From NCBI GenBank assembly GCA_945787285.1, contig CALZIC010000120.1:1-43863 (forward strand): a stretch of 43,863 bases of DNA. The letters run 5' to 3'. Below the pieces are notes generated by a model that worked only from the letters and a program-made list of their open reading frames with translations, searched no databases and was not told the origin of the DNA. Shown in pieces: positions 4,217 through 43,310 of the stretch. This stretch comes from an uncultured Desulfuromonadales bacterium (GTDB taxonomy: Bacteria > Desulfobacterota > Desulfuromonadia > Desulfuromonadales > Trichloromonadaceae). The first letter of the stretch is position 1. Each line of letters starts with the position of its first letter. Position numbers and translations under genes: made by a program.

Positions 4217-5119
4217 CTACTTAGTACAAGAATCAAGAAGAAGCCGCGCTTCTTCCCCATAATGCGGATCAAGTTCGGGATGATCGACGACTGTTTTCAG
4301 CATCGGAAGGCCCTCTTTCTTCCAGCCCAGTGCGAGATAGGCCTGGGCGATGCGAAAGACCCAGTACGGGTTGCCTGGCTCTTTACGACAGGCCCCTTTG
4401 AAGGCCTCCAGGGCTTTGGCGACCGATTTATCGTGGCGAAGCCAGAATTCGGCCAAAGCAATATTGGCCGAACCGGAACAACCCGACCCGGACAGAGCAC
4501 CCAGCTGCCTTTCTGCCCCCTCGAGATCCCCTTGCTGCTCAAGCAGGGAGGCCAAAAGAACCCGTATTTCGGGGGCCGCCGAGCCGGAGGCGATGGCGCG
4601 TTCACAGTGCGCAAGCGATTTGTCCGCCAGGCCGCGAGTAGCATAGAGTGCTGCCAGTTCGCCATGGCAATAGCCCGGATTTATTCCAAGATCAAGCATC
4701 CCCTGAAGACGCTTTTCAGCGGCATCGAGCTTCTTTTCAGCACGATCGAGCATCACAAGGCTTTCCAGGGCAGGAAAAAACGGGCCATTGGCCACCGCGG
4801 CCTTTTCCAGGTCACGACGGCCTGCAGCGGCTTTCTGCGTGCGTACCAGCAGCGAACCGCGCTCGAAGAAGTAAAGCTCGTCTCTCTCGCTGTTGTCGAC
4901 CCGGTCAAATGCCGCCAGCGCCTCCTTGTCGTTCCCGTCGTGGGCATGGAGAAAAGCGGTGCGGAAGGTCTCGCTTTTTTGTGCATAAAGGTCAGCGAGC
5001 TGTTCAGGGTATGTGGCAAGCAAAAGCTCAAGCCGCGATTCGGCATCCAGCCCCTCGGAGGCCCCTTCGTCAGCCACCTGCTCTGCTGAACACCCGGAGG
5101 CACAACACCCCGAAGCCAA
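4217..5119 (-). CDS. tetratricopeptide repeat protein, main body; appears frame-disrupted from its N-terminal part (5120-5433)
   Basis: 300-aa ORF with TPR-like helical repeats. It begins at TTG immediately where the coding-looking part of the overlapping ORF 4753..5433 stops making sense. Confidence 0.6.
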   Translation of the reverse strand: MASGCCASGCSAEQVADEGASEGLDAESRLELLLATYPEQLADLYAQKSETFRTAFLHAHDGNDKEALAAFDRVDNSERDELYFFERGSLLVRTQKAAAGRRDLEKAAVANGPFFPALESLVMLDRAEKKLDAAEKRLQGMLDLGINPGYCHGELAALYATRGLADKSLAHCERAIASGSAAPEIRVLLASLLEQQGDLEGAERQLGALSGSGCSGSANIALAEFWLRHDKSVAKALEAFKGACRKEPGNPYWVFRIAQAYLALGWKKEGLPMLKTVVDHPELDPHYGEEARLLLDSCTK

Positions 5120-5433
5120 GCGAGGCCTGAATGGGCCCGCTGCTTGAGATCCTCATCGCAGGCATGGGTGGCCGCAAGAGCGAAATGCTCATGGGCCCTT
5201 GCCGTATCGCCGCCCCTCAAGCAGGCCTCCCCCTCTGAAATGTTCATCTCAGCCAGCGAGTCGCCGGCCTGAACAAGGAGCTGCTGCAATTCCTCGAGGA
5301 GTTCGGAAGTAAGAGAGCTGCGGTCAATACACTCTCCGGAGACTAGGGCTTCGGCCCAGCGGCTCTGGGCCACCAACCGCCTGACGGAATCGAGCGGATG
5401 CTTACTGCCAAAAATGCGCTTCAGAAGACTCAT
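5103..5433 (-). pseudogene. N-terminal segment of the TPR protein in a different frame (frameshift near 5100-5125)
   Basis: ORF 4753..5433 reads plausibly for about 105 aa (MSLLKRIFGSKHPLDSVRRL...AHSGLAWLRG), then becomes P/W-rich junk exactly where ORF 4217..5119 starts. A C4/G4 run lies at 5108-5111. Confidence 0.45.
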
Positions 5434-5450
5434 AAAGAATAGAAAGTTCT

Positions 5451-6017
5451 CTAAATAGTGGTGAAAGGGGAAAGGGTCCAGATCACCTTGGCATCGCCCT
5501 CACCGACATTGTCCCAGCGGTGCGGAAGATGCGACTTGAAAGAGATGCTGTCGCCCGGGCTAAGGGAATGCTTTTCACCGGCGATTGTAACCTCTATCTG
5601 CCCCTCAAGTACATAGATAAGTTCATCCCCGGGGTGATACATATTTTTAACACCGCTGGTCCCCCCTTTGGGCACGGTACAGTAAAACGACATGAACTGG
5701 GGGTCACGCAGGCCCGAGGTGAAAGACTCGGTGTGCATATTGCTCTCATCATCGTAGACCGTTTGGTCGCGGGTACCCGGGGTGCTGAACACGACCTCAT
5801 GGGTGGTGCTCACCTCTTCGACGAAATAATTGATGCTCTTGTCAAAAACCCCGGCGAGCTTCAACAGGATCTCCACCGAGGGAATCGTCAGACCACGCTC
5901 GATGCGGGAAATCATGTTAGATGACACCTTGGACCTCTTCGCCAGGTCTTGGATGGTCATATCCTTTTTAAGACGGATCGCCTTGAGTTTTTTGCCAACG
6001 ATTTTTTTGGTCTTCAT
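5451..6017 (-). CDS. XRE-family HTH transcriptional regulator with C-terminal cupin domain
   Basis: 188 aa; HTH TIQDLAKRSKVSSNMISRIERG; cupin motif G-x5-H-x-H...GD. Confidence 0.85.
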   Translation of the reverse strand: MKTKKIVGKKLKAIRLKKDMTIQDLAKRSKVSSNMISRIERGLTIPSVEILLKLAGVFDKSINYFVEEVSTTHEVVFSTPGTRDQTVYDDESNMHTESFTSGLRDPQFMSFYCTVPKGGTSGVKNMYHPGDELIYVLEGQIEVTIAGEKHSLSPGDSISFKSHLPHRWDNVGEGDAKVIWTLSPFTTI

Positions 6018-6070
6018 TCAACTTCTCCAGGGAACAACCAGGAAGACTTCAATTCCAAGTGCGACAACGA

Positions 6071-6646
6071 CTATTGGGCCAGGTTAGGGGCCGGGGATAC
6101 GACCCACATAACGACCGTCTTCCCGTCATGGACATTCTTCCAGGTATGCGGAATCGACGCCTTGAAAATCAGCGAGTCCCCCTGGCCAAGCACATGATGT
6201 TCGTTGTTGACATTGAACTCTAGTCGTCCTTCGAGCACCAGGGCGAACTCTTCGCCGGTATGAACCATGCCCCCCTCTCCGCTGCTGCACCCCTCTTCCA
6301 GGGTGTCGTAAAAGACGGCAAAATTGGGGTCGCGAATCCCCTGGGTCAGGCTGGTGATCTGATGCTTGTCCTCAAAGAAGAATATCGGTTCGCCCTGCCC
6401 TTTTCTGGTCAGGACAACCGTCGAGCCCTTCTCCGCCTCTTCGACGAAATAATTAATGCTCATCCCGAAAGCATTGGCCAACTTCATCAGAATTTCGACC
6501 GAGGGCACGGTGAGCCCCCTTTCGATCCTTGATATCATGTTGGACGAGACCTTTGACCGGTCAGCCAGATCCTGAATGGTCATGTCATTTCGCAACCGGG
6601 TTGACTTAAGCTTCTTTCCTACCAACTGTTTAATCATGCCTGCCAT
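6071..6646 (-). CDS. XRE-family HTH + cupin transcriptional regulator (tandem paralog of 5451..6017)
   Basis: 191 aa; near-identical N-terminal HTH TIQDLADRSKVSSNMISRIERG; same architecture; 53-bp gap to the paralog. Confidence 0.85.
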   Translation of the reverse strand: MAGMIKQLVGKKLKSTRLRNDMTIQDLADRSKVSSNMISRIERGLTVPSVEILMKLANAFGMSINYFVEEAEKGSTVVLTRKGQGEPIFFFEDKHQITSLTQGIRDPNFAVFYDTLEEGCSSGEGGMVHTGEEFALVLEGRLEFNVNNEHHVLGQGDSLIFKASIPHTWKNVHDGKTVVMWVVSPAPNLAQ

Positions 6647-6787
6647 CCTGATAAATAATAGAAATAAAATGGTGTTTTATCACTGTAAATCTAATCTGTC
6701 AATACGATATGTAAAATCCTTACCCATTTTTGATATTTTAGCCTATTTTCCAGAGACATCAATTGTGAACCTCCAACCCTAAACAGG

Positions 6788-6815
6788 TTGACAATCAGAC
6801 AGAAACCCTTATAAT
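6788..6815 (+). promoter_or_regulatory. consensus sigma70 promoter for bioB (TTGACA-16 bp-TATAAT)
   Basis: TTGACA at 6788-6793, TATAAT at 6810-6815, about 40 bp upstream of the bioB ATG. Confidence 0.6.
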
Positions 6816-6855
6816 CCCGTCTTGTTCCCATGAAAAAAACGACAGGAGACCAACA

Positions 6856-7842
6856 ATGACCCCAACGACCATGACCCTGATAGAAAAAGCCCGAACAGGT
6901 GAGGCCCCGACACAGGAAGAAGCCCTTGCCATCCTCCAGGCCAGGGGCGCCGATCTCAACTTTATCCTGGCGGGAGCCAGTTTGCTGCGGGAAAAGACAT
7001 TTGGCAACGCAATAGAATTGTGTTCCATTATCAATGCCAAATCGGGGCGTTGTGCCGAGAACTGCGCGTTCTGCGCCCAGTCGACCCACCACCAGACCGA
7101 CGCTCCGGTATACCCCCTGCGCTCGTATGAAGAGATTGTCGCCGGTGCGCGCCAGGCCCAGGAAGAAGGGTCTCACTGCTACGGAATCGTGACCAGCGGC
7201 ACCCGGATCCGCGCCGGCGAAGAGCTCGACTCTGTTTTGGCCGCCATCCGCGAGATCCGGGGCACCACCAGCATCGCCCCCTCGGCGTCGCTCGGCATCC
7301 TGGATGAAGCCACGGCGCAGGCCCTGTACGATGCAGGATGCGTCACCTACCACCACAACCTTGAAACGGCCCGCTCCTTCTTTCCCAACATTTGCAGTAC
7401 CCATGCCTACGATGAGGATGTCGACACGGTCAAGCTGGCCAAGAAAATCGGCATGAAAGTCTGCTGCGGCGGCATCTTCGGCCTCGGCGAATCGCTCGAG
7501 CAACGGGTCGAGATGGCCTTCACCCTCAGGGAACTGAACGTCGACTCGGTGCCGCTCAACTTCCTCAACCCGATTCCAGGCACCCCCCTCGAGGGGGCAA
7601 ACGATCTTAAACCGCTCGACTGCATCCGCATTATCGCCTTGTTCCGCTACCTCCTTCCGCAAAAGCGCATCAGCGTCTGCGGCGGCCGGGAGCAAAATCT
7701 GAAAGATTACCAGTCGTGGATGTTCATGGCCGGTGCCAGCGGCACCATGGTGGGGAACTACCTGACGACCTGCGGCCGCAATCGCGAGGATGACCTGCAG
7801 ATGTTCCGGGATGGCGAGGTGGAAATCAATGGCTGCTGCTGA
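6856..7842 (+). CDS. bioB: biotin synthase (radical SAM)
   Basis: 328 aa; CxxxCxxC radical-SAM cluster (GRCAENCAFCAQS); full-length BioB similarity. Confidence 0.95.
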   Translation: MTPTTMTLIEKARTGEAPTQEEALAILQARGADLNFILAGASLLREKTFGNAIELCSIINAKSGRCAENCAFCAQSTHHQTDAPVYPLRSYEEIVAGARQAQEEGSHCYGIVTSGTRIRAGEELDSVLAAIREIRGTTSIAPSASLGILDEATAQALYDAGCVTYHHNLETARSFFPNICSTHAYDEDVDTVKLAKKIGMKVCCGGIFGLGESLEQRVEMAFTLRELNVDSVPLNFLNPIPGTPLEGANDLKPLDCIRIIALFRYLLPQKRISVCGGREQNLKDYQSWMFMAGASGTMVGNYLTTCGRNREDDLQMFRDGEVEINGCC

Positions 7843-8554
7843 TCGCCCCAGGGGGATTTTCGTTACCGGGACCGACACCGGAGTCGGCAAAACCCTTTTT
7901 GCCGCTGCCCTGGCCCGGTTTCTGCGCGAGAGGGGCATCGACGCAGGGGTCATGAAACCGGTCGAGTCGGGGGTTGAAAACCCGTCCGAACTCGGCCCCG
8001 ACGGGCGCCTTCTGAAATGGGCCTCCGGGACGACCGACGACGATGCGCTCATCTGTCCCTATCGACTGCGTGCTCCGCTGGCGCCTTCAGAGGCCGCCCG
8101 ACGCGAGTCGGTTCATATCGATTTCGGCCATCTCGGCCAGATCGCCCGCCAACTCGCAAGCCAGCATGAGTTTCTGATCGTCGAAGGGGCCGGCGGACTG
8201 ATGGTCCCCCTGGCCGGCGGCCTGCTGGTGGCAGACCTGGCCCGCGATATCGGACTGCCCCTGCTGACCGTATGTCGGCCCGGCCTGGGGACGATCAACC
8301 ACACGCTGCTGACCCTTTTTGCGGCACGGACGATGGAGATCCCCCTGGCCGGCTTCATGATCAACAACATGCCCAAAGAGCCGAATGACGCCGAAAAAGG
8401 GGCGCCCCATGCCCTGGCCTCGCTGGCCTCGGCCGACCTTCTTGGCGTACTCGACCACGTTTCGGCTTCGCCCGAGGAACAGGTTGAGGCACTGGCCGCC
8501 CAACTCAACGCCCTTCCGTCCCTCCCCTGGCTGCTGGCAGCCCTGGGAATTTAA
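7829..8554 (+). CDS. bioD: dethiobiotin synthetase
   Basis: P-loop GTDTGVGKT and overall BioD similarity. Start chosen at ATG 7829 (MAAADRPRGIFVTG), overlapping the bioB end by 14 nt; the ORF-track start at 7790 is probably too far upstream. Confidence 0.88.
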   Translation: MAAADRPRGIFVTGTDTGVGKTLFAAALARFLRERGIDAGVMKPVESGVENPSELGPDGRLLKWASGTTDDDALICPYRLRAPLAPSEAARRESVHIDFGHLGQIARQLASQHEFLIVEGAGGLMVPLAGGLLVADLARDIGLPLLTVCRPGLGTINHTLLTLFAARTMEIPLAGFMINNMPKEPNDAEKGAPHALASLASADLLGVLDHVSASPEEQVEALAAQLNALPSLPWLLAALGI

Positions 8555-8571
8555 CTTATTACGGTGTACCC

Positions 8572-9921
8572 ATGACCTCCGAAGAGATCCAGAGACTCGA
8601 CCGCAAACACGTCTGGCACCCCTGCACCCAGGAAAAAGACCTGGAATCGATGCCGCCGATCCCCATCAGCCACGCAGACGGGGTCTATCTTTACGACAGC
8701 GACGGCCGCAGTTATATCGACGGCGTATCCTCCTGGTGGGTCAACATCTTCGGACACAACCACCCGCGCTTGAACAGGGCACTGATCGACCAGGCCGGCA
8801 AGGTGTCGCACCATATCTTTGCAGGGTTTACCCATGAGCCTGGAGTCGAGCTTGCCCGCAGGCTCGCGGAGCTGACTCCCGGAGATCTCTGCAAGGTCTT
8901 TTTTACCGACAACGGCTCCTCGGCCGTCGAAGCGGCCCTGAAAATGAGCTTCCAGTACTGGCAACAGGTGGGAAAACCCCAAAAAACCCGCTTTGTTTCG
9001 ATCACCGAAGCCTATCATGGCGAAACCATCGGCTGCCTGTCGGTCAGCGGGTGCGATCTCTATCGGGAAATCTACCGGCCCATGCTCCTGGAGGAGTACC
9101 AGGTGCAAGGGCCGGACTGCTATCGCTGCCCTTACGGACTGACCCGCGAAGGCTGCAACGCCGAATGTTTCGAAAAGATGGAAACCCTGGTGGCCCGCGA
9201 GCATGAAAACATCGCCGGCATCATCATCGAGCCGCTGATTCAGGGGGCGGCCGGCATGCGCATCTACTCTGCCGAATACCTGAAGAAACTCAGGGCATTG
9301 TGCGACCGCTACCAGGTACACTATATTGCCGATGAAATCGCCGTCGGATTCGGCCGCACCGGGCGCCTGTTCGCCAACGAACATGCCGGGGTCGCGCCCG
9401 ACATCATGTGCCTGTCGAAAGGGATCACCGGGGGCTACATGCCGCTTGCCGTCGTGCTGACCCACCAGGCGATCTACGACGCTTTTTACGACGACTACCA
9501 GACGATGAAGGCCTTTCTGCACAGCCATTCCTACTCGGGCAATCCGCTGGCGTGCGCATTGGCGGTCGAAGTGCTGAAAATTTTCGAGGAAGAAAAGATC
9601 CTCGACCAGCTCCCGCCCAAAATGAATCTCCTGGATGCCGGCGCAGAGCGTTTTGAACAGCTCGACACGGTGGGCGAATTTCGCCGTTGCGGCATGGTGG
9701 CAGCCGTCGAACTGGTACAGGACAAAAAGAGCAAAACCCCCTTCCCGTGGCAACAGAGAAGGGGGCTTGAAGTGTTCAAAAAGGCGCTGCAAAAAGGGGC
9801 GCTGCTGCGCCCCCTGGGAAATGTCGTCTATTTCATGCCCCCCCTGACCATCGACGAACAGGCCCTGCAAGACCTTCTGGATGCGGCCTACGACTCGATT
9901 GTCGAGGTAACGCAAACCTGA
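8572..9921 (+). CDS. bioA: adenosylmethionine-8-amino-7-oxononanoate aminotransferase
   Basis: 449 aa class-III PLP aminotransferase with BioA-specific N-terminus (HVWHPCTQ) and PLP-lysine region SKGITGGYMPLAVV. Confidence 0.95.
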   Translation: MTSEEIQRLDRKHVWHPCTQEKDLESMPPIPISHADGVYLYDSDGRSYIDGVSSWWVNIFGHNHPRLNRALIDQAGKVSHHIFAGFTHEPGVELARRLAELTPGDLCKVFFTDNGSSAVEAALKMSFQYWQQVGKPQKTRFVSITEAYHGETIGCLSVSGCDLYREIYRPMLLEEYQVQGPDCYRCPYGLTREGCNAECFEKMETLVAREHENIAGIIIEPLIQGAAGMRIYSAEYLKKLRALCDRYQVHYIADEIAVGFGRTGRLFANEHAGVAPDIMCLSKGITGGYMPLAVVLTHQAIYDAFYDDYQTMKAFLHSHSYSGNPLACALAVEVLKIFEEEKILDQLPPKMNLLDAGAERFEQLDTVGEFRRCGMVAAVELVQDKKSKTPFPWQQRRGLEVFKKALQKGALLRPLGNVVYFMPPLTIDEQALQDLLDAAYDSIVEVTQT

Positions 9922-9933
9922 CAAATCTGCGGC

Positions 9934-11074: not shown

Positions 11075-11107
11075 ATCCCGATCATTTTTTCGGACAGACA
11101 GCCTACT

Positions 11108-11147
11108 AAAAAAGCCCTCCCGGACCGGGAGGGCTTTTTGGTTTTTA
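11108..11147. terminator. bidirectional rho-independent terminator between convergent plsC and hydrolase genes
   Basis: aaaaaa-GCCCTCCCGG-ac-CCGGGAGGGC-tttttggttttt; perfect 10-bp stem flanked by A-run and T-run. Confidence 0.8.
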
Positions 11148-11960
11148 AGCGACCTTGCTCAATCTGCCAGCCCCGTGCCTCTGCACCCTGACCTGGTTGA
11201 GGAATTCGAGCAGATAACCATTGAACTCTTCAGGTTTTTCATAATTGATCAGTTTCCCGCCACCTTCAACTTCAACGATCGCACTCCCGGGCAGAGGCAT
11301 TGAGTGAAGTCGCAACGTATCGGCACTTCCCTGCACGACCAGGCAAGGAGGGATCTCCAGAAGACAAGTCGTCGCGCCAAAGTCTTTGCGGTCACGCACG
11401 GCCCTCAGACCATTAACCAGGGCCGTATAGTCTGCCGACCATATCATGCCGCTGATCAATGCCTTTTCCTCAGCAGAAATCGTCGCCTCCTCTGGAAACA
11501 ACGAGGCCAACTGCCCCTCGACAAGGTCATTCAAGTGGCCGGCTTCTGCCATCCAGATCAACTCATTGCACCGGGTCTTTTCCGCCTGATCGGCCCCCTT
11601 AATCGAAGTAGAGACCAGGCAGGCCCCGGCCACCCGCTGAGAAAACCGCTCAAGAATGTGCAAAACGACCGTACCGCCCATGGAGGATCCGCAGAAAACG
11701 GCCCTGCCGATCCCCAGGTAATTCAAAAGGTCAAGGACATCCCCAGCCATCGACTGCAGGGTCCAGGGGGTCTTGGACGTCGAACTGTCGCCGAACCCTC
11801 GCAGATCAGGCATGACCACGCGGTAGCCGGCCTTCACCAGCGGATCCACCTGGTGGGTCCACATCTGGCGGTTGAGCGGAAAACCGTGAATCAGAACAAT
11901 GGCGGGACCGCATCCATAATCATCATACGCCAGGGATTTACCATTAATCATAGCCCTCAT
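11145..11960 (-). CDS. alpha/beta hydrolase fold protein
   Basis: GSSMGG nucleophile-elbow motif with HGFPLN upstream. Start placed at MRAMINGK (ATG 11960); the longer ORF to 12275 overlaps the upstream satP gene. Confidence 0.8.
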   Translation of the reverse strand: MRAMINGKSLAYDDYGCGPAIVLIHGFPLNRQMWTHQVDPLVKAGYRVVMPDLRGFGDSSTSKTPWTLQSMAGDVLDLLNYLGIGRAVFCGSSMGGTVVLHILERFSQRVAGACLVSTSIKGADQAEKTRCNELIWMAEAGHLNDLVEGQLASLFPEEATISAEEKALISGMIWSADYTALVNGLRAVRDRKDFGATTCLLEIPPCLVVQGSADTLRLHSMPLPGSAIVEVEGGGKLINYEKPEEFNGYLLEFLNQVRVQRHGAGRLSKVA

Positions 11961-11977
11961 AATCAACCGCTCAGTAA

Positions 11978-15477: not shown

Positions 15478-15480
15478 ACC

Positions 15481-15979: not shown

Positions 15980-16174
15980 ATGATTACCAAGGACATGACC
16001 ATCGGCGATGTCATGAGGGAGCACCCGGAAACGATTGCGGTTTTCAAGCGATTCGGCCTCAACTGCCATGACTGCCAGATCGCTGACATTGAAGAAGTCG
16101 AGCACGGTGCCGGGGTTCACCAGGTCGACATCGATCAGCTCCTTGGCGAGCTGAACAAAGCCATCGAAGAGTAA
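15980..16174 (+). CDS. DUF1858 domain small redox-disulfide-type protein
   Basis: MITKDMTIGDVMREHPETIAVFKRFGLNCHDCQIA...; taggagg RBS before ATG 15980. Confidence 0.65.
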   Translation: MITKDMTIGDVMREHPETIAVFKRFGLNCHDCQIADIEEVEHGAGVHQVDIDQLLGELNKAIEE

Positions 16175-17003
16175 CCCCGGGAGCCTGTAGGACTTGACGG
16201 ACCGTAACGAGAAATTGGATGTTCGAGACCAGATTTTCGAGAATTTGAGAGCGAATAGCAGGGCTATTTGTCGAAAATTGTCGAGGATACTCCATTTGCT
16301 CAAGCTGGGTGACCAATCGGTCCAAAGCATCGACCACCAGGGCCTCGAGTTGCGCCCCCTTTTCGGCGGTGGCCCGGGTCGGGTCGCCCCAAACCCCGCC
16401 AGGCCAGAAACGGCGCTTGTTTCTCACCAGAATGCCGCTCGGAAAGGACGGAAACTCCCGCCTCCCCTCCCCCTTTACCAGATGCGGGTGCGAGTTGAGA
16501 ATCCGTGAGGTTTCGATCTCGCCGGCGTGCGAATCGCCTTCGGTCTCGATGAGACCGCGCCCCTCCCTTGCCGCCAGCATGTACTCGGTCAAAACGGCGA
16601 TGCCGATATCTTCGAAGCGCTCAAGCAGTTCTTCCCCGGCGTCGATCAGGGCCGAGGTATGGGTCCCGCCGGCATGACCGGTGATCAAAACGAAATTGCG
16701 CAGCCCCTGGCGCCTCAGAGAGGTCACGATGTCGATGGCCAGAGCTCTGATCGTTGACGTGGTGATGCTGATGGTGCCGGGATGTTCGGCGGTGGACCGG
16801 CAGACCCCGTACGGAATCGGCGGGGCGATGAAGATCGGACGTTTCTCTGCGAGACGGCGGCCGACCTCCACGGCATGCAGGGTATCGGTCGAAAGGGGCA
16901 GATGATCGCCGTGCTGCTCGGTCGCCCCGAAGGGGATCAACACCGTGCGGGTCTTTTCGAGCCCATCGGCAAACTCGCACATGGTCATCTCTTCAATAAT
17001 CAT
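16059..17003 (-). CDS. creatininase (creatinine amidohydrolase) family protein; C-terminal ~35 aa are translated from the dispersed repeat
   Basis: Motifs EQHGDHLPLSTD, HAGGTHT, GHAGEIETS. The ORF has no stop until 16059, so it runs through repeat copy A and overlaps the convergent DUF1858 gene. Confidence 0.7.
   Translation of the reverse strand: MIIEEMTMCEFADGLEKTRTVLIPFGATEQHGDHLPLSTDTLHAVEVGRRLAEKRPIFIAPPIPYGVCRSTAEHPGTISITTSTIRALAIDIVTSLRRQGLRNFVLITGHAGGTHTSALIDAGEELLERFEDIGIAVLTEYMLAAREGRGLIETEGDSHAGEIETSRILNSHPHLVKGEGRREFPSFPSGILVRNKRRFWPGGVWGDPTRATAEKGAQLEALVVDALDRLVTQLEQMEYPRQFSTNSPAIRSQILENLVSNIQFLVTVRQVLQAPGVTLRWLCSARQGADRCRPGEPRHRARLLQCQRSGSHGS
16194..16289 (+). repeat. dispersed repeat copy A (~95 bp, about 90 percent identical to 25524-25618)
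   Basis: direct comparison: GACCGtAACGAGAAATTGGATGTTCGAGaCCAG...AATTTGAGAGCGAATAGCAGGGCTATTTGTCGAAAATTGTCGAGGATA. Confidence 0.85.
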
Positions 17004-19932: not shown

Positions 19933-20086
19933 TTCGTTTCTATTTGGAAACAATGGAAAGCCCCCTGGTCCTGATGGATTTGGGGGCTTTTTGTTTTTGG
20001 GTTGCCTGCAGTCTTTCAATTCTATCCATTGAAATTTTTTCAAGAATGGATAAAGTTAGTAAGATTTTTAAAACAGGAGGATCGGC

Positions 20087-20923
20087 CTTGAAATTTATAT
20101 TTTTAATAATTTTATGCCATTTGACTTTATGTTTTTCCGTTTCAGCCGAAACGTCTTTGTGGGTGGTAAATACGGACAATTCCGTCACATATATCGGAGG
20201 CACCAGTCATGTGCTTCGCCCCATTGATTATCCTTTGCCTCATGAATTTGAGGTGGCCTACGCAAACTCCGATTCTATCGTTTTGGAAGCTAATCCCAGC
20301 ACCTTTGCCAGTCCAGCAATTCAGCAACAACTCCTAAGGAGTTCTATTTACAATCTCCTAAAACGTTCAACCTCCTAAGGCAGTATTGCGAAAGTTCGGG
20401 TATTCCAGTTGCCAATTTAATTAAGTTCAAGCCTTCCATGGTAGCCATGGTATTAGTGGTCTTTGAGCTTCAGAAACTTGGCAGTGCCGAAAGTGGGGTG
20501 GATTTTCACTTCCACGCTAGAGCCACTACGGATAAAAAACTTATCGGAGAACTGGAAACGGCTGAGCAACAGCTGGGATTCCTCCTGTCAATGGGCGAAG
20601 GCAACGAGGACCAATTTATAAAGCATACGATTGCGGACCTAAAAAATACCAGGGAGTTTTTTGAAAATTTTATTTTGGCCTGGCGAAATGGAAATGAATC
20701 AGAACTGGAGAACCTTCTTATTACTGCAACAAAAGAGACCTCTCCGGATATCTACAAAACCCTTTTCAAGGACCGTAATGCCGCCTGGCTTCCCATGTTT
20801 GAAAAATACATCGAGTCACAAGAAACGGAGTTCATTTTAGTTGGTGTGGGCCATCTGGTGGGCGAAGACGGCCTGATCGAAACCTTGAGAACTCGCGGGT
20901 TTGATGTGCAAAAGATGAAATAA
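20087..20923 (+). pseudogene. TraB/GumN family protein gene disrupted by a 40-bp insertion (frame break about 20340-20379)
   Basis: N-terminal part in the frame of ORF 19944..20378 (signal peptide then SLWVVNTDNSVTYIGGTSHVLRPIDYPLP). C-terminal part in the frame of ORF 20438..20923, whose coding frame is open back to 20339. Removing 20340-20379 joins ...AIQQQLLR to QYCESSGIPVANLIKFKPSMVAMV... in one frame; the junctions carry a ctcctaagg direct repeat. Confidence 0.6.
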
Positions 20924-23161: not shown

Positions 23162-24395
23162 TCACTCTGACGCCATCTTCACCAGTCTCGGGTCGAACCG
23201 GGCCACCGTTTCCACCAGATCGGTCTGGGCCGCCATGACCTCATCGATATCCTTGTAGGCCATCGGCACCTCGTCCAGTCCGGCGGAGAGCAGGGTCACT
23301 CCGCGCTCATCGAGAAAAGCGCGTGCCTGCTTCCAGGTGAAATTCTGCCTGGCAGCCTTGCGGCTCATTTTTCGACCGGCACCATGGGAGGCGGAGCAGA
23401 GAGAGTCGGGGTGGCCCTTGCCGCGAACCACGTACCCTGACGTCCCCATGGAACCCGGGATGATGCCGAGAACGCCCATTCCTGCCGGGGTCGCCCCTTT
23501 TCGGTGAACCACCACCTGCTCACCGTTGTGAACCTCATTCCAGGCGAAGTTGTGATGATTCTCCACATCGAGAAGGACCTCGGCCCCGAGATGGTCGGCG
23601 ATGTCACGGTGGATCAGGGCATGATTGGCCGCTGAGTAAAGGCCCATCAGTTCCATGGCATTCCAGTACCCCTGCCCTTCTTCGCTCTGCAGATCGAGCC
23701 AGGCCAGCGGCTGAAGCTGGTTCGGGAGCTCGGGATGCAGCTCACGAGCAACACGGCTGTAGTGTTCAGCGATCGAACCGCCGGTCCCCCTGCTGCCGCT
23801 GTGGCTGAGCAGGGCCAGGTAAGTGCCGGCCTCCAGCCCCAGGTCAGACTGCAAAAGGGTCAGTTCACCAAACTCTACAAAGTGGTTGCCGCTGCCGCTG
23901 GTGCCCAGCTGCTTCCAGGCCTTGTCCTTTAGGCCGCGGGTCAGGCGGGTTATGCTCCAATCTGCATCCATGACATCGTGCTCTTTGCGGTGTGAAAAGG
24001 TGGCCCCGACACCAAAAGAGGTCGATCGGCAGCCCGTACCCCTGATGCGCATCGGGCATCAGCGCGCCGGAGACCGAAACCGGCAACCTGCAGGCGTTTT
24101 CCATCTGCTCTACCGCACTCTGTTCAAGGTCGGTCCCCCAGCGGCAATAGGGAGCAGGATCCTGCCGATGATCGAAGCGGGCCCGGAACTCCTTGACCTC
24201 CTGGTAGGTGAGCGCAAAGGAGCCGAACAGCTCATGCTCAAGATAGTCCTGCGGATTATCAACGACCGCGGACATCATCGCCCGGATCGACTGTTTATCC
24301 TGGCCCGCCCTGGCCGCCTGAGCGGTGGCCTGCTGAGCCAGTTTCATCAGGGAGCCCTTGGGGACCCCGAGATTTGTCAATTCTCTGTTTTTCAT
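23162..24395 (-). pseudogene. rtcB: RNA-splicing ligase RtcB, split into two overlapping ORFs by a frameshift at an A4/T4 run (about 24014-24020)
   Basis: ORF 23865..24395 carries the N-terminal part ending MPDAHQGYGLPI. ORF 23162..24052 carries the rest: GSGNHF, HHNFAWNE, RKGATPAGMGVLGIIPGSMGTSGYVVRGKG, SHGAGRKMSR, MAYKDIDEVMAAQTDLVE. The frames switch right after the metal-binding PDAHQGYG motif. Confidence 0.85.
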
Positions 24396-33947: not shown

Positions 33948-34730
33948 TCAAACCTTTCCGACCGGTGCTAGATAGATGGTGAATTCGTTTTCACCGTCGA
34001 CGCCGAGGAGTTGGTCCATTTTGTCCTGGTGGAAGGCGGCGATGGCGCAGGCCCCGGCGGAAATAGCCTGGCAAGCCAGGTAGAGGTTCTGGCAGACGTG
34101 CCCGGCGTCGATGGCGATGACCCGGTGGGCCGCGGTGTGGTAGCGCCATTCCATACGGTAGGGGATGACCGCCCAAATGAAGGTGACCGGGGCGGTGGCG
34201 ATGAAGTCCTGGTTCAGGGTTGCCCGGGAGAGTTCTGGCTGAAGGTGCTCCCGTTCATGTTCGAAAACCAGGGCATGTTCCACGGCAAGGTAGCGGTAAA
34301 TGCCGGGCGGCAGTCCCTCGACGTTCGACACCGCCAAGTAGGTTTCAAAGGCGTGGCGGCATCCTGCCGAAGGAACCACCCGAAAGGCGCATCCGGGGTG
34401 TACTACTTCCCGGATGCCCTGGGTGGCCCACAGCAGAAAAGAGAGTTCGGGCAGGGTCAGGGGGGCGTCTGTGAACTTTCGGTGGCTGCTGCGGTTTCTG
34501 ATCGCGTCGACCAGGTCGGTTCCGGCAAAGGTGCTCCAGGAAGGGCGATCAAGGGTTGATTTTTCTTTGCCGGTTTTTGAATCGGGGGTGGGGGCACTCC
34601 CTTGTTCTGGTCGGTCTGACGGAAGTCGATTTCCAGGCGCAGGGAGTCTTTCAGAAAGTCCCTGCAGGTATGAATCGCGTTCTTTCCCATCGATATCTCC
34701 TTGTAGTGAAAAACAGTCCATCAACAGCAC
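33948..34730 (-). CDS. SagB-type dehydrogenase / nitroreductase-family protein
   Basis: RNRSSHRKFTDAPLTLPELSFLLWATQGI nitroreductase-like FMN-binding motif; 5' end uncertain. Confidence 0.65.
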   Translation of the reverse strand: MLLMDCFSLQGDIDGKERDSYLQGLSERLPAPGNRLPSDRPEQGSAPTPDSKTGKEKSTLDRPSWSTFAGTDLVDAIRNRSSHRKFTDAPLTLPELSFLLWATQGIREVVHPGCAFRVVPSAGCRHAFETYLAVSNVEGLPPGIYRYLAVEHALVFEHEREHLQPELSRATLNQDFIATAPVTFIWAVIPYRMEWRYHTAAHRVIAIDAGHVCQNLYLACQAISAGACAIAAFHQDKMDQLLGVDGENEFTIYLAPVGKV

Positions 34731-38621: not shown

Positions 38622-38735
38622 TGTTTTCTCGAAAAAACACCGGAGTTGCATTTCATTCCGCGGGTATTAGTCTTGTAGGCAGGACGCAAACCGAAAGCAC
38701 ACGTTCGAGAAGACACTTATCAGAGGGAGGCTTTT

Positions 38736-39386
38736 ATGGGATGTGTCAGGTTCAAGGTGTTTATCCTACAGATTGTTCTGCTCTTCAGCCTGCCGGCGCT
38801 CTCTTTTGCCGAGCAGCCTGCGGCAGTTCAGACAGTAGCTACATCGCCCGACGCTATCTGTCCGCTGCTGATCGGCAGCCCGGTTCCGGACCTTACCGTC
38901 AAGACGGTCGCGGGCGAGTCGTTTGACCTGAAAGCCGCCATTCGCTCGAAACCAACGGTTCTGATCTTTTATCGGGGCGGCTGGTGACCGTACTGTAATC
39001 TCCAGTTGGGAGAACTGATTAAAATCGAACCGGAACTTCTCAAAATCGGCTACCAGGTCATCGCCCTCAGTGCCGACAAGCCGGAATATCTGCAGAAAAG
39101 CCAGTTGAAGCACAAGCCGAACTACCTGCTTCTCTCGGACAGCACCATGGAGGCCGCCATGGCCTTTGGGGTCGCCTTTAAAGTGGATGCGCAAACGGTA
39201 GAGAAGTATAAGGAGTTCGGGGCCGATTTAGAGCAAGCCTCAGGAAAAACCCACCATCTGCTGCCGGTGCCTGCCGCCTTCGTGATCGGCTCGGATGGGG
39301 TCGTCAAATTTTCCTACGTCAATCCAGACTTCAAGACCAGGGTGAGTTCCGATGTGCTGCTGGCAGCGGCGAAATCTGCCTTGTAA
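38736..39386 (+). CDS. predicted selenoprotein: secreted Prx-like/redoxin-family thiol-disulfide oxidoreductase with in-frame TGA (Sec) at 38985-38987 in a W-U-PYCN active site
   Basis: ORF-track pieces 38736..38987 and 39006..39386 share one frame. The only interruption is TGA, exactly where Cys sits in the redoxin F-Y-R-G-x-W-C-P-x-C motif (FYRGGW-TGA-PYCNLQ). Signal peptide at the N-terminus. A 5-bp stem-loop TCTCC-aguug-GGAGA starts 11 nt after the UGA, which matches bacterial SECIS geometry. Confidence 0.7.
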
Positions 39387-39451
39387 CTGATCCTGTGAGT
39401 TTTGCCCGGTCAGAACTCGCGGAAGCAGGATCATGAGAGAAGGGGAGTGCC

Positions 39452-40099
39452 ATGGGGTTGAAATCCAGGCTAGAGGCCATGAAGTCCGACTTCATCCGTA
39501 ACGCCGATCCGGTCATACTTGAGAAAATGCAGCATGCAACCCGGGTTCTCGAAGAACCCGACCATCTGGCCTTTGTCCTGAATGTGGGGGAGCGAGCTCC
39601 GGAATTCAGCCTGAATGACGCCCGGGGACAGGCCGTCAGCAGCCAGGATCTGCTGCTGAAAGGACGGCTTCTGGTTGCCTTTTATCGAGGGGTGTGGTGA
39701 CCGTATTGCAACGCGGAGCTGGAGGCTCTGCAGGAAATCTGGCAGGAAATCGAGAAGACGAAAACCACCCTGGTTGCCATTTCTCCCATGCAGGATAAAT
39801 ACGCTCCCCAACTGGTTCAGAAACTTCAGCTGAGCTTTCCGGTTCTCAGTGATCCGGGCAATCGGGTGGCGGAGCAGTTCGGTGTCGTCTATACCCTGTC
39901 CAACGGAATGAAAGAGATCTACAAAGATCTCGGTATTGACCTGGAGCGCTTCAACGGCGATACCAACTTGCGGCTGCCGATGCCGGGACGCATCATTATC
40001 GATGGCGGGGGGATAATTCGCGACGTCGATATCCACCCCGATCACACCACCCGTCCCGAGCCGGAAGAGACCCTGGCCATTCTGAGATCACTGAAATAA
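39452..40099 (+). CDS. predicted selenoprotein: cytoplasmic Prx-like/redoxin paralog with in-frame TGA (Sec) at 39698-39700 in a W-U-PYCN active site
   Basis: ORF-track pieces 39452..39700 and 39788..40099 share one frame (FYRGVW-TGA-PYCNAELEALQEIWQ...), checked by hand translation of 39701-39790. Hairpin GCGGAGC-uggag-GCUCUGC starts 12 nt after the UGA. Confidence 0.7.
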
Positions 40100-40101
40100 A
40101 A

Positions 40102-40135
40102 AGCCGGATGCCCCCTGGGGGGAATCCGGCTTTGG
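40102..40135. terminator. bidirectional rho-independent terminator between the second selenoprotein gene and the GGDEF gene
   Basis: aaaaaGCCGGATgccccctggggggaATCCGGCtttgg. Confidence 0.7.
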
Positions 40136-40169
40136 ATTGTCAGCAATTGGGTCGGGGAAAAGGGTTGTT

Positions 40170-40916
40170 TCACTCCTGCGGGGGATCCTCCTCAAGGCCC
40201 TTGCCGCTGAAGAGGTTGAACAGAACCTCTTTTTCATCATGGCTGACGCTGCTGATATCCTCAATGTGTTTGAAGGGTGCGTGGCAGGTGCGGTTGCGCC
40301 CTTCACTTTTCGCCTGGTAAAGGTATTGGTCGGCTTTCTTGACCAGGTCCTCGGCGGTGTCGGCCTGCCCGGCGTAATGGACCTGGATTCCGAGGCTGGC
40401 CGTCATGATAAGGTCCTTATCTCCCACCGTCAGCGGGGAGGCCTCGATAATCTTGCGCATCCGTTCCGCCAGTACAATGCTTCCGGCCAGGTCGGTCCCA
40501 GGCAGGATGATGCCGAACTCTTCTCCCCCGTAGCGACAGGGGATATCAAACGTTCGTACCGACTGGCGCATCAGCTGGGCGATATGGATAAGCGCCTTGT
40601 TGCCGACCTCGTGTCCCCAGGAATCGTTGATTTTTTTGAAAAAATCGAGATCTACCATGACCAGCGCCATCGGCTGGCCGCTGCGCCGGGTGCGTTCCAT
40701 TTCCTGCCCGAGGGCCTGAATGAAGTAGCGGAAGTTGGCTATTCCCGTAAGCGTGTCCGTGTGAACCAGTTCGGACAATTGGGCGATCTTTTCGCGCAAT
40801 TCGGCGGCCTCGGAAAGAAAGGCACAATTGGCCTCTCCGAGAGGACAGTCCTTTGGGGAAGAGTGGTCGTCAGCCATATCTATCGGTCGTTTTTGTCGGT
40901 CGTTTGTTGTTTTCAT
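40170..40916 (-). CDS. diguanylate cyclase (GGDEF domain protein)
   Basis: RYGGEEF active-site motif and GGDEF-domain layout; start chosen at MKTTNDRQKRP (ATG 40916). Confidence 0.8.
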   Translation of the reverse strand: MKTTNDRQKRPIDMADDHSSPKDCPLGEANCAFLSEAAELREKIAQLSELVHTDTLTGIANFRYFIQALGQEMERTRRSGQPMALVMVDLDFFKKINDSWGHEVGNKALIHIAQLMRQSVRTFDIPCRYGGEEFGIILPGTDLAGSIVLAERMRKIIEASPLTVGDKDLIMTASLGIQVHYAGQADTAEDLVKKADQYLYQAKSEGRNRTCHAPFKHIEDISSVSHDEKEVLFNLFSGKGLEEDPPQE

Positions 40917-41012
40917 TTTCGTATGTCTTGCCACAGAGTATGGAACAAACAGCAGCGGGCCAAGCCGCAACGTTCACCAAGGCCTCTGTATTAGAATAAT
41001 CCAGTCACTTTT

Positions 41013-41172
41013 TTGACAAGTCCCCCTTCATACCATAAAAAAATGAAAAAAAGTAATTAAAGGTGCAAGTTTTGCGTATCGTGCCTGTGGATGGCAGAGG
41101 CCGCCGGCATTCCCGGTCCCAAATAGCAAGCCGGATTTTCCCCAAAGGGAAGCTCCGGCTTGCTTTTTGTTT
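41013..41172 (+). ncRNA. candidate small RNA: sigma70-like promoter (TTGACA 41013-41018, TAAAAA 41036-41041) to a strong intrinsic terminator (41126-41172)
   Basis: perfect 10-bp stem GCAAGCCGGA...TCCGGCTTGC followed by tttttgttt on the + strand. No + strand protein gene upstream; lies between GGDEF and kinase genes, both on the minus strand. Confidence 0.3.
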
Positions 41173-41222
41173 GGAATTTGACGGCTTGTGTACCGTGCGG
41201 GTAGTCGTGTCAAATTATTCGC

Positions 41223-42598
41223 TCAGCCCGACAGAACGATCTCCACGATCAGTCCTCCATCTGTCGCATTGCGTGCCGTGACCGACCCGCCGTGTCGCCG
41301 GGCGGCCCGCTCGACAATGGCCAGGCCGATACCGGTACCGCCGCTCTTGCGGTCGCGGGCCACGGCGGTGCGGTAGAATGGCTCGAATATTTTCTGCAGC
41401 TCTTCATCCGGCACTCCCGGCCCATGGTCGCGTACGCGTATCGTCACCAGCCCCGACGCTTCATCCCTTGCCAGATCGACCTCTACGGAAGTCCCCTCGT
41501 CGGTGTAGTTCACCGCGTTGCGAACCACGTTTTCGCCAATCCTGCGCAGCAGGTCCACCGAGCCTTTGATGAAAATGTCGTCGCTCTGGTGCAATTGGAC
41601 CGTGCGGTTGCGGCTGCGGGCCTCGAAATCGGCGTCGGAGACGATGTCGCGCACCAGGCCGGAGAGGTCGACCTCCTGCTGTGGAGCTTGACGGGTGCCG
41701 GTTTCGAGCAGGTTCAGACTGAGAAGCTGGCCGATCATCTCGTTCATGCGATCGGTTTCCCGTTCGATGCGGTCCAGGGACGCCCTGGCTTCTTCACCCG
41801 AACGTTGCCGGGCCAGTTCGAGAGCGACGTTGAGGCGGGCGAGGGGAGAGCGCAGTTCGTGGGAGATGTCCCGTTGCAGGCGTTTCTGCGAATCGATCAG
41901 GTCCTCGATGCGTTCGGCCATCCGGTCGAAATCGCGGGCCAGGTTGCCGATTTCGTTTTTTGGCTGACCCGGGTTGAAAGGTCGCCGTCGGCAAACTGGC
42001 GGGTCGCTTCGCTCAATTTGCGGATCGGCTTGGTCAAAGAGCGGGTCAGGACGAAGCAGACGATTCCCCCGACCACCAGCAAAGCGCTGAGACCGACCCC
42101 CTGGCCAGGTAAATAGTCCCGGTGTCGCGGGGGGCGACGAATTTTCCCTGTCCGTGCGGAAGATACTTTCAGCTCGATGACCAGCACCGAGTGGGGCAGG
42201 TCAGGCAGGGGCAGGGGGCGGCCGAAGTAAAAGTAGGGGTAAGCGCGGAGGGCCTTGACGCTCCGCTCGGCAAAAATCAGATCCGCCAGTCGGGTGGCAA
42301 GCTTCGGGGCCCTTTGGCCCGTGAGGGTCCTGTCCTTTTCGGTAAAGAGGAAGGGGCGTGGAGATTCCGGGTCCAGATCGTCGAGGTACTGGCTCCAGCC
42401 CTCGGTTCCACCCCTTGCAAGAGCTTCGGCCGCCTCACGGGCATAGCCGTCGAGTCCTTTGGAGGCGAACTGAAGCTGGTTTTCGAGAATCGGCCGTTCC
42501 TCCGGGCGGTTCAGGTAGCTGATCACGTGGACGGTCGCTCCGGTCAGGGTGACCGTCAGCCAGAAGCTGAGGAAGATTTTGACGAACAGGCTACGCAT
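41223..42598 (-). pseudogene. two-component sensor histidine kinase (periplasmic sensor-TM-HAMP-HisKA-HATPase; CpxA/EnvZ-like), split by a frameshift in an A6/T6 run at about 41957-41962
   Basis: ORF 41897..42706 carries TM1, the sensor, TM2 and HAMP, ending in out-of-frame junk. ORF 41223..41921 carries the HisKA H-box (SHELRSPL) and HATPase (G-box GGTGIGLAIV). Adding one A to the A6 run restores ...RVSQKNEIGNLARDFDRMAERIEDL.... Start at MRSLFVKIF (ATG 42598) overlaps the end of the regulator gene. Confidence 0.8.
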
Positions 42599-43310
42599 GG
42601 GGTTCCTCGCTGCTGTCGGCATACAGGTAGCCGACACCGCGGACTGTCTTGATCCGCTCGCTGTCGCCGATACGGTTGCCGAGTTTTTTGCGCAGGCTGC
42701 TGACATGTACGTCGATGCTGCGGTCGTAGGGGGAGAGGCGCCGTCCCAACACCTTGCGGACCAGTTCTTCCCGTTCGATCACCTTTCCCGCCGAGCGCAT
42801 CAGCACTTCGAGCAGGGTGAACTCCACCGCAGTCAGTTCGATGGCCTCCCCGTTGCGTCTGACTTCCCGGGTGCCGCCGTTGAGCTCGAGATCACCGATT
42901 AAAAGGCGTGGGACGCTCTCTGCGGTTGATTCCTCCTTTTCAACAGGAGCTTCGGCCCGGCGCTGGATGGCTCGGATACGAGCAACCAGTTCGCGTGGAT
43001 TGAAGGGCTTGGGCAGGTAATCGTCGGCGCCCATCTCCAGACCGACGATGCGGTCGATATCGTCGCCTCGGGCAGTCAGCATGATCACCGGCACTTTCGA
43101 TTTTTCACGGATGTGACGCAGCACGTCGAAGCCGCTCATCCCCGGCAGCATCACGTCGAGCACCACCAGACCGTATTCTACGGCAAGAGCCTTTTCGACC
43201 CCGGCGTGGGCTTCGTTGACCGTTTCGATCTCGAACCCCTCGGGGGTCAGGTAGTCGCAAAGGAGTTCGCAGAGTTCGGTGTCGTCGTCGATAACGAGAA
43301 TGCGGTTCAT
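42591..43310 (-). CDS. OmpR-family response regulator (CpxR-like), receiver plus winged-helix
   Basis: 239 aa; MNRILVIDDDTELCELL...VLDVMLPGMSGFDVL receiver domain; C-terminal TVRGVGY winged helix. Confidence 0.9.
   Translation of the reverse strand: MNRILVIDDDTELCELLCDYLTPEGFEIETVNEAHAGVEKALAVEYGLVVLDVMLPGMSGFDVLRHIREKSKVPVIMLTARGDDIDRIVGLEMGADDYLPKPFNPRELVARIRAIQRRAEAPVEKEESTAESVPRLLIGDLELNGGTREVRRNGEAIELTAVEFTLLEVLMRSAGKVIEREELVRKVLGRRLSPYDRSIDVHVSSLRKKLGNRIGDSERIKTVRGVGYLYADSSEEPHA

What the first reader, a model, noticed from the sequence alone, without database searches (positions are those of the whole stretch)
4217..42706. Four disrupted genes in one window (TPR, TraB/GumN, rtcB, sensor kinase), two of them at homopolymer runs
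rtcB shifts at an A4 run and the histidine kinase at an A6 run, where adding one A restores the HAMP-HisKA linker RVSQKNEIGNLARDFDRMAERIEDL. The TPR gene shifts near a C4 run, and TraB carries a 40-bp insertion. Either the assembly carries homopolymer indel errors, as from pyrosequencing, Ion Torrent or nanopore, or this strain is accumulating pseudogenes, or some are slipped-strand phase-variable. The distinction matters, because the same data support the UGA-selenoprotein calls, which are not homopolymer-associated and are motif-conserved twice.
Basis: seen in the sequence. Interest (0 to 1): 0.5.

Follow-up and report, generated by a model that had tools for sequence, protein, structure and literature searches.

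The report
Contig-specific medium deletions breaking seven genes
The four "frameshifted" genes are broken by clean 13 to 146-base deletions, not one-base slips at homopolymer runs, and the same contig carries at least three more; these deletions are absent from near-identical sister genomes and are more likely an assembly defect than biology.

Summary
The cause is different. Comparison with conspecific and congeneric metagenome-assembled contigs and with protein homologues shows that each lesion is a multi-base deletion: 46 nt (TPR), about 28 nt (TraB), 146 nt (rtcB, removing the metal-binding Asp/Cys motif) and 13 nt (kinase).

- The kinase A6 run is created by the deletion junction.
- The TraB "40-bp insertion" encodes conserved residues and is genuine gene sequence.

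- 13 nt, frameshifting a nitroreductase.
- 46 nt, removing the ribosome-binding site of a hydrolase.
- 57 nt, removing the stop codon of a creatininase-family gene.

Five of the six junctions whose flanks could be read show no microhomology and one shows 1 nt. None of the seven deletions is shorter than 13 nt, and two sizes recur (13 and 46). Over about 3,500 codons the window lineage has only 3 point changes, against 3 deletions in the same 13 kb.

This rules out homopolymer sequencing error and slipped-strand phase variation. The spectrum is not natural. I favour a technical origin at about 0.6 (collapsed gaps, merging or polishing of a draft metagenome genome), and a real recent burst of deletions at about 0.3. 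The two UGA selenoprotein calls are conserved in a relative and are unaffected.

The parts
4217..5433 (-). TPR-repeat gene (orthologues 413-435 aa) split by a 46-nt deletion between window bases 5117 and 5118
   Evidence: contig L085, 98.5% identical, has 46 extra nt (TGCGAAGC...GGATCCTG) here; all 15 homologues carry a linker of about 12-20 residues that the window lacks..
11145..11970 (-). Alpha/beta-hydrolase gene (ATG at 11960) with a 46-nt deletion between 11964 and 11965 that removes the AGAAGGAGAA ribosome-binding site and a TTGACA-containing upstream stretch
   Evidence: L084 and L087 carry the whole 46 nt, L085 ends 22 nt into it, and all three have flanks identical to the window. Pfam Abhydrolase_1.
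16059..17003 (-). Creatininase-family gene. A 57-nt deletion between 16289 and 16290 removes its last codon and stop codon, giving a 314-aa ORF instead of 239 aa
   Evidence: L087, 98-99.6% identical, has 57 extra nt encoding ...LEQMER*; orthologues are 239 aa.
19944..20923 (+). TraB/GumN gene split by a deletion of about 28 nt at about 20354/20355. The size is inferred from homologue length, because no close relative is available
   Evidence: Pfam PF01963 positions 2-66 and 105-262 lie in two frames; ten homologues, ungapped here, have nine more residues between IYN and SP(K/R)T. DNA sequence.
23162..24395 (-). rtcB split by a 146-nt deletion between 24022 and 24023. The lost segment covers residues aligned to P. 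horikoshii RtcB G75 to about G131, including D95 and C98
   Evidence: L083 (intact, 459 aa) has 146 extra nt, and inserting them restores a full ORF; intact homologues; alignment to 1UC2/4DWQ.
33948..34690 (-). The true start ATG at 34690 is in a different frame from the 260-aa ORF
   Evidence: tblastn gives two frames. L088 and L081 both have 13 extra nt (CGGGCAAAGAGAG / CGGGAAAAGAGAA), and the N-terminus MGKNAIHTCRDFLK... lies in the other frame.
41223..42598 (-). CpxA-like HAMP/HisKA/HATPase sensor kinase split by a 13-nt deletion at 41960/41961. The A6 run 41956-41961 is the junction product
   Evidence: all 10 homologues have four more residues (EIKG, DIKA, SIGG...). L081 and L089 each have 13 extra nt, and at least 45 nt on each side of the junction are near-identical to both relatives (a single mismatch in L081).
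38736..40099 (+). Two AhpC/TSA-type selenoprotein candidates with in-frame TGA at 38985-38987 and 39698-39700. Context only; not damaged
   Evidence: the same TGA position and the same FYRG(G/V)W-U-PYCN motif occur in both genes of relative L081, and the coding sequence downstream is conserved.

Best explanation
The broken genes are not homopolymer slips. This 43,863-bp contig is a complete, unannotated public contig, probably from a metagenome-assembled genome of a Desulfuromonadales bacterium. It carries at least seven private deletions of 13, 13, about 28, 46, 46, 57 and 146 nt.

Shown:
- Each deletion removes sequence that the closest available relatives and wider homologues retain.
- Five deletions frameshift a gene, one removes a ribosome-binding site, and one removes a stop codon.

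Inferred:
- The deletions most likely arose while the sequence was built, not in the organism. Possible routes are small unsequenced gaps collapsed when pieces were joined, faulty merging or scaffolding, local reassembly during polishing, or consensus drop-outs at low coverage in a community that holds several close relatives.
- On this reading the genes are probably intact in the cell.
For: - **Exact deletions against near-identical contigs.** 46 nt at 5117/8, 46 nt at 11964/5 and 57 nt at 16289/90.
- **Deletions against congeneric contigs.** 146 nt, 13 nt and 13 nt.
- **TraB.** About 28 nt missing, judged from ten ungapped homologues.
- **Deletions match point changes in number.** Over 15 intact genes (about 3,500 codons) the window lineage has only 2 synonymous and 1 non-synonymous change, polarised with an outgroup. 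The same 13 kb holds 3 deletions.
- **No small indels.** No window-specific 1-2 nt indel occurs in that 13 kb. The only other private change is one in-frame 3-nt insertion in a gene (11346, absent from both conspecifics); a second 3-nt difference (8556, intergenic) is specific to L085.
- **Truncated, repeating sizes.** None is under 13 nt, and 13 and 46 each occur twice.
- **Blunt junctions.** Microhomology is 0 nt at five junctions and 1 nt at one.
- **Single hits.** Each affected gene has one lesion and is otherwise well conserved, 79-92% amino-acid identity to congeners on both sides of the break.
- **Other genes are whole.** The rest of the roughly 40 distinct syntenic genes are collinear and unbroken.
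- **One-sided pattern.** The sister contigs carry no deletion of 6 nt or more relative to the window.
- **Coincidence with a contig break.** The sister assembly's break between L085 and L087 (an exact 121-nt overlap) spans the 11964/5 site.
- **Mixed community.** One sister bin holds relatives at 87%, 89% and 97% identity for the same region.
Against: - I cannot name the technical step.
- A plain short-read de Bruijn contig needs reads that span each junction, which would make the deletions real molecules.
- I had no reads, coverage or assembly metadata. The source record is withheld from the look-up tool, and searches for the sister accessions found no paper.
- A hand test for polishing-window boundaries (positions modulo 500) showed no pattern.
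- The three conspecific sequences are identical around the 11965 site, so a strain-bubble origin is not supported there.
- All hits fall in dispensable genes or elements, which also fits real deletions that selection tolerated.
Confidence: 0.6

Rival explanations
1. The deletions are real. One clonal lineage of this population very recently acquired many blunt 13-146-bp deletions, for example by end-joining repair of double-strand breaks or a deletion-prone repair defect. TPR, TraB, rtcB, the nitroreductase and the kinase would then be fresh pseudogenes.
For: - The deletions are in the deposited record, and gene calls P0122 (286 aa) and P0180 (161 aa) on the 43,863-bp contig match the broken state.
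- A contig-level short-read assembly would need junction-spanning reads.
- The contig also has a perfect in-frame 33-nt tandem duplication in rtcA next to the damaged rtcB, and an IS4-like insertion absent from relatives, so some private structural change is real.
- No clearly essential gene is hit.
Against: - The ratio of deletions to point substitutions is about 1:1 in this lineage.
- There are no 1-2 nt indels or nonsense mutations, and almost no microhomology. To my knowledge, spontaneous bacterial mutation spectra are dominated by substitutions and small indels, and their deletions are usually flanked by short repeats.
- Extrapolated, about one deletion per 4-7 kb means hundreds of inactivated genes in a genome about 99.9% identical to an intact sister. 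That is hard to reconcile with viability, or with drift in the absence of substitutions.
Confidence: 0.3
2. Homopolymer-length sequencing errors (pyrosequencing, Ion Torrent or nanopore) at the A4, A6 and C4 runs caused one-base frameshifts.
For: One added A restores the kinase frame. Runs of 4-6 nt lie at or within about 8 nt of three of the junctions.
Against: - Every lesion is 13 nt or longer compared with relatives.
- Runs of 4 nt or more occur once per 50 nt.
- The A6 run is a junction product.
- There are no 1-nt differences from conspecific contigs in 13 kb.
Confidence: 0.02
3. Slipped-strand phase variation: the kinase and rtcB are switched on and off by changes in tract length.
For: An A6 run sits at the kinase frameshift.
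Against: - Intact alleles have only A5 or A6 next to 13 further bases that the window lacks.
- A +1 slip would give a HAMP connector four residues shorter than in all 10 homologues.
- rtcB has lost 146 nt, including catalytic residues, and cannot be switched back.
Confidence: 0.01

Closest known systems
Local misassembly, collapsed gaps or indel errors in draft metagenome-assembled genomes
   Same: The lesions are private to one assembly and absent from a near-identical sister assembly. Their sizes are of tens of bases, there is no accompanying point divergence, one junction coincides with a contig break in the sister assembly, and the community holds several close relatives.
   Different: No reads or assembly history were available, and I identified no specific assembler behaviour that yields blunt 13-146-nt losses. 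The match of 46 nt to K-1 of Pilon's default K = 47 (PMC4237348) is numerology, not a test.
Deletional pseudogenes in bacteria (deletional bias; Mira, Ochman and Moran 2001, cited from memory)
   Same: Genes are inactivated by loss of tens of bases, and the deletions are not multiples of three.
   Different: Natural pseudogene sets also contain 1-2 nt indels, nonsense mutations, older multi-hit genes and accompanying substitutions. Here every event is a single hit of 13 nt or more, with almost no point change.
Homopolymer contingency loci (phase-variable genes of Haemophilus, Neisseria, Campylobacter; from general knowledge)
   Same: There is a frameshift at an A6 run in a signalling gene.
   Different: The run is created by a 13-nt deletion, the intact alleles have no long tract, and the tract cannot restore the orthologous protein.
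Bacterial non-homologous end joining (Ku/LigD) repair scars (from general knowledge)
   Same: The deletions are short with little or no microhomology at the junction.
   Different: No Ku or LigD gene lies in the window, there is no evidence of breakage, and the density would be far beyond anything I know of in a viable wild lineage.

Membership tests
Homopolymer sequencing indel error | The lesion is a 1-2 nt change in the length of a mononucleotide run compared with the true sequence | tested here: not met
   The lesions are 13, 13, about 28, 46, 46, 57 and 146 nt compared with relatives.
Homopolymer sequencing indel error | Many such errors are scattered over the contig, including in intergenic runs | tested here: not met
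   There is no window-specific 1-2 nt indel in 13 kb aligned to conspecific contigs.
Slipped-strand phase-variable (contingency) gene | A long homopolymer or short tandem repeat tract is present in the intact allele at the switch site | tested here: not met
   At the kinase site the intact alleles read GGGAAAAAC and GCAAAAAAC next to 13 nt absent from the window. No such tract flanks the TPR or rtcB junction; the TraB intact allele is not available.
Slipped-strand phase-variable (contingency) gene | A change in tract length restores the full orthologous protein | tested here: not met
   Adding one A gives a HAMP connector four residues short of all 10 homologues. rtcB lacks 49 codons, including D95 and C98 equivalents.
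Deletional pseudogene (real) | Sequence present in orthologues is missing and the reading frame or expression signals are lost | tested here: met
Deletional pseudogene (real) | The deletion exists in the organism's DNA, with reads spanning the junction at full depth | not testable with these tools
   No reads or coverage data were available, and the source record is withheld.
Deletional pseudogene (real) | Signs of relaxed selection or further decay accompany the lesion in the lineage | tested here: not met
   Each gene has a single lesion, and the flanking halves are 79-92% identical to congeners. The lineage has 2 synonymous and 1 non-synonymous change in about 3,500 codons.
Assembly artefact (collapsed gap or misjoin) | The lesions are private to one assembly of a population whose other assemblies are intact | tested here: met
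   Three of three testable sites are intact in L084, L085 and L087, and there are no reciprocal deletions.
Assembly artefact (collapsed gap or misjoin) | The junctions lack read support or coincide with joins between assembly pieces | not testable with these tools
   There is only an indirect hint: the sister assembly's contig break (121-nt overlap) spans the 11964/5 site.
   Both genes have TGA in FYRG(G/V)W-U-PYCN in the window and in L081.
   I did not examine this. The Rfam gathering-threshold scan returned only the tRNA-like hit.

The most novel reading that the evidence does not exclude
The deletions are real. A single clonal lineage, about 99.9% identical to intact sister genomes, has just suffered a burst of blunt 13-146-bp deletions, as numerous as its point substitutions. 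This would point to massive DNA breakage repaired by end joining, or to a deletion-prone repair defect, in a free-living Desulfuromonadales bacterium caught before selection or further decay.
Probability: 0.2. Interest if true: 0.55.

Novelty: not a real feature. Interest (0 to 1): 0.2.

Why it matters
- **For annotation.** These genes should not be recorded as homopolymer frameshifts, phase-variable loci or ancient pseudogenes. The contig, and probably the whole assembly, should be treated as carrying medium-sized drop-outs that silently remove codons, ribosome-binding sites and stop codons.
- **Hidden damage.** Two of the three extra lesions are masked by chance ORFs: the 260-aa nitroreductase ORF and the 314-aa creatininase-family ORF. 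Counting split genes therefore underestimates the damage.
- **Selenoproteins.** The UGA calls in the same window rest on conservation in a relative and are safe.
- **If the deletions are real.** A deletion-to-substitution ratio near 1 would be an unusual mutational event worth following up.

Tried and rejected
- **Finding the source record.** Exact-protein look-ups of window proteins found nothing, because the record is withheld. Cluster look-ups show only that the contig is an unannotated NCBI record of 43,863 bp.
- **Genome-collection scan with RtcB.** The best hit was 72% identical, so there is no close genome among the species representatives.
Removing 40 bp between the CTCCTAAGG repeats restores the frame but deletes 16 residues, and the result falls about 23 residues short of the homologues at this spot. 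I rejected it.
- **A 1-nt repair plus a naturally short linker for TPR.** Rejected, because the 98.5%-identical contig has exactly 46 more nt.
- **Strain-bubble drop-out.** This predicts that deleted segments are bounded by polymorphic sites. The three conspecific sequences are identical around 11965, so it is not supported there.
- **Simple abutment of overlapping pieces.** This predicts perfect tandem duplications. I found only one, 33 nt in rtcA, and none of 121 nt.
- **Polishing-window boundaries.** Deletion positions modulo 500, calculated by hand, show no pattern.
- **Pilon default K = 47.** This makes 46 equal to K-1 (PMC4237348), but Pilon closures need read support, so I leave it as an unverified lead.
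- **Shared motif at breakpoints.** None found.
- **Literature searches.** Searches for the sister-assembly accessions and for SRR31444216 found nothing.
- **Rfam scan.** It returned only the tRNA-like hit.


Full report
**What the window is.** The window is a complete public contig. Gene calls identical to its fragments (P0122, the 286-aa TPR C-terminal piece; P0180, the 161-aa TraB C-terminal piece) come from an NCBI record whose longest contig is 43,863 bp. That record carries no protein names or accessions, which is typical of an unannotated metagenome-assembled genome. The homologues that carry source names are mostly Desulfuromonadales: Trichloromonas sp. at 61% identity, and Desulfuromonas, Geoalkalibacter, Geotalea and Geopsychrobacteraceae at 38-51%. 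The record itself is withheld from the contig look-up tool. No close genome exists among the species representatives (best RtcB match 72%).

**The observation.**
- TPR: 4217-5119 and 4753-5433 (-).
- TraB/GumN: 19944-20378 and 20438-20923 (+). Pfam PF01963 positions 2-66 and 105-262 fall in different frames.
- rtcB: 23162-24052 and 23865-24395 (-).
- HAMP/HisKA/HATPase kinase: 41223-41921 and 41897-42706 (-), with the true start probably the ATG at 42598.

**What the lesions really are.** I recovered related DNA through homologous proteins and their contigs.

| Locus | Source | Identity to window | Window region |
|---|---|---|---|
| L085 | GCA_945787475.1 | 98.5% | 4227-11964 |
| L087 | GCA_945787475.1 | 98.3-99.6% | 11866-17373 |
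| L084 | GCA_945787145.1 | 97.4% | 6920-12205 |
| L081, L082, L083, L086, L088 | GCA_945787145.1 | 76-89% | 1-18560, 23128-29121, 33945-43863 |
| L089 | Logan SRR31444216 | 83% | kinase gene |

- **TPR.** L085 has exactly 46 more nt between window bases 5117 and 5118. All 15 aligned homologues have a linker of about 12-20 residues where the window has two.
- **rtcB.** L083 encodes an intact 459-aa protein and has exactly 146 more nt between 24022 and 24023. Inserting them restores a full ORF. Intact homologues from three other phyla show the same missing block, GGVLA...VG(V/M)DIACRM...E(T/A)x. The block aligns to P. horikoshii RtcB residues 75 to about 131 and includes D95 and C98. From my own knowledge, these are metal ligands of the active site.
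- **Kinase.** L081 and L089 each have 13 more nt (GGAGATCAAGGGG and GGACATCAAGGCA). At least 45 nt on each side of the junction are near-identical to both relatives, with a single mismatch in L081. All 10 homologues have four more residues here. The A6 run is therefore A + AAAAA brought together by the deletion.
- **TraB.** The best homologues are only about 52% identical, so the exact size is inferred. Ten homologues, ungapped in this region, have nine residues between IYN and S-P-(K/R)-T that the window lacks, and the serine codon has lost its first base. That makes about 28 nt missing at about 20354/20355. Deleting it restores the frame but removes 16 residues and leaves the protein about 23 residues short of the homologues at this spot, so the 40 bp are genuine gene sequence.

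- **46 nt at 11964/11965.** The deletion ends 4 nt upstream of the hydrolase ATG (11960). It removes AGAAGGAGAA and a TTGACA-containing stretch. L084 and L087 carry the whole segment and L085 ends 22 nt into it; the flanks are otherwise identical.
- **57 nt at 16289/16290.** The deletion removes the last codon and stop codon of a creatininase-family gene (...LEQMER* in L087). This produces a 314-aa ORF instead of 239 aa.
- **13 nt at 34538/34539 in the nitroreductase gene.** Its true N-terminus (MGKNAIHTCRDFLK..., ATG at 34690) lies in a different frame from the body. A fortuitous GTG-started 260-aa ORF hides the frameshift.

A tblastn screen with the called genes of the relatives' contigs (about 40 distinct syntenic genes) found frame breaks only in TPR, rtcB, the kinase and the nitroreductase. 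Other gaps against the 83-89% relatives lie in poorly conserved intergenic DNA and cannot be polarised.

**Why homopolymer error and phase variation fail.**
- No lesion is a 1-2 nt change in tract length.
- Runs of 4 nt or more occur 877 times, one per 50 nt, so lying near one means little.
- The window has no private 1-2 nt indel in 13 kb of conspecific alignment. The two 1-nt differences seen belong to L084.
- A +1 slip in the kinase cannot recreate the orthologous HAMP connector, and rtcB cannot be switched back.

**Real deletions or artefact?** Several features are unlike natural decay.

1. I polarised codon differences with an outgroup over 15 intact genes (about 3,500 codons). The window lineage has 2 synonymous and 1 non-synonymous change. 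The sister lineage has 55, of which 44 sit in one bioB patch. In the same 13 kb the window has three deletions and the sister none.
2. All seven deletions are 13 nt or longer, and two sizes recur (13, 13; 46, 46).
3. Microhomology is 0 nt at five junctions and 1 nt at one.
4. Each affected gene has one lesion and is otherwise as conserved as its neighbours.
5. The only other window-private indel is an in-frame 3-nt insertion in a gene (11346), as expected of natural polymorphism; a second 3-nt difference at 8556 belongs to L085.
6. The sister assembly breaks its contigs, with an exact 121-nt overlap, across the 11964/5 site. One sister bin contains three different relatives of the same region. 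This is a setting prone to assembly trouble.

If one deletion per 4-7 kb held genome-wide, it would mean hundreds of broken genes in a genome almost identical to an intact one.

Against an artefact:
- I cannot name the step responsible.
- A plain de Bruijn contig needs junction-spanning reads.
- The tests I could run were negative or uninformative: window boundaries modulo 500, strain-bubble boundaries and abutment duplications.
- The equality 46 = K-1 for Pilon's default K = 47 (PMC4237348) is only a lead.

I put a technical origin at about 0.6 and a real recent burst of deletions at about 0.3.

**Selenoproteins.** Both AhpC/TSA-type genes (38736-39386 and 39452-40099) carry an in-frame TGA in FYRG(G/V)W-U-PYCN. 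Relative L081 has the same TGA, the same motif and conserved downstream coding sequence. These calls do not depend on the deletion problem.

**Verdict.** The finding is ordinary in kind: a damaged draft contig or, less likely, fresh deletional pseudogenes. Interest is low unless read mapping shows that the deletions are real.

Noticed in passing
window 27193-27264 (-), with promoter-like site 27393-27378 (-): ARAGORN calls a 'tRNA-Gly(ACC)' here. Rfam scores it at only 39 bits, and it has a 5-nt loop where the anticodon loop should be. It lies in the leader between a sigma-54-like TGGCAC-N5-TTGAA site and the band7-rtcA-rtcB genes, divergent from rtcR. It recalls the tRNA-like domains of bacterial Y RNAs found next to rtcBA (from memory). 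ARAGORN finds none in the congeneric L083.
   Followed up: partly
window 24430-24495 (rtcA 3' end): A perfect in-frame 33-nt tandem duplication repeats VDMVKVAPKVW. It is absent from L083 and lies 440 nt from the rtcB deletion. It could be natural, or a join of overlapping assembly pieces.
   Followed up: partly
window 16176-16289 and 25505-25687: An intergenic repeat of about 115-150 nt occurs in two copies at 91% identity. The second copy carries a 49-nt tandem duplication, and the 57-nt deletion starts inside the first copy.
   Followed up: partly
window 18500-23100 and 29100-33950: Two stretches break synteny with the relatives, and their cores (about 18-22 kb and 30-34 kb) are low in GC (0.42-0.49). 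They hold a ROS/MucR regulator, TraB/GumN, TPR and RDD proteins, a peptidase M74, an EF-hand protein with six 18-nt tandem repeats (32116-32259), 81-nt direct repeats at 29893 and 31546 flanking a 402-aa ORF with no Pfam match, and an intact IS4-like transposase (32712-33929; DUF4372 + DDE_Tnp_1).
   Followed up: no
L085 2676-3662 (bioB of sister assembly GCA_945787475.1): Of the sister lineage's 55 codon changes, 44 sit in bioB alone, while the window's bioB matches the outgroup. This looks like a recombined or chimeric patch in the sister contig.
   Followed up: no
L081, L084 and L088 (all GCA_945787145.1): One deposited bin holds contigs 87%, 89% and 97% identical to the same window regions, so it mixes at least two or three related populations.
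   Followed up: no
window 38736-40099 (+): Two adjacent AhpC/TSA-type genes each have an in-frame TGA in W-U-P-Y-C, conserved in L081. One has a signal peptide-like N-terminus.
   Followed up: partly
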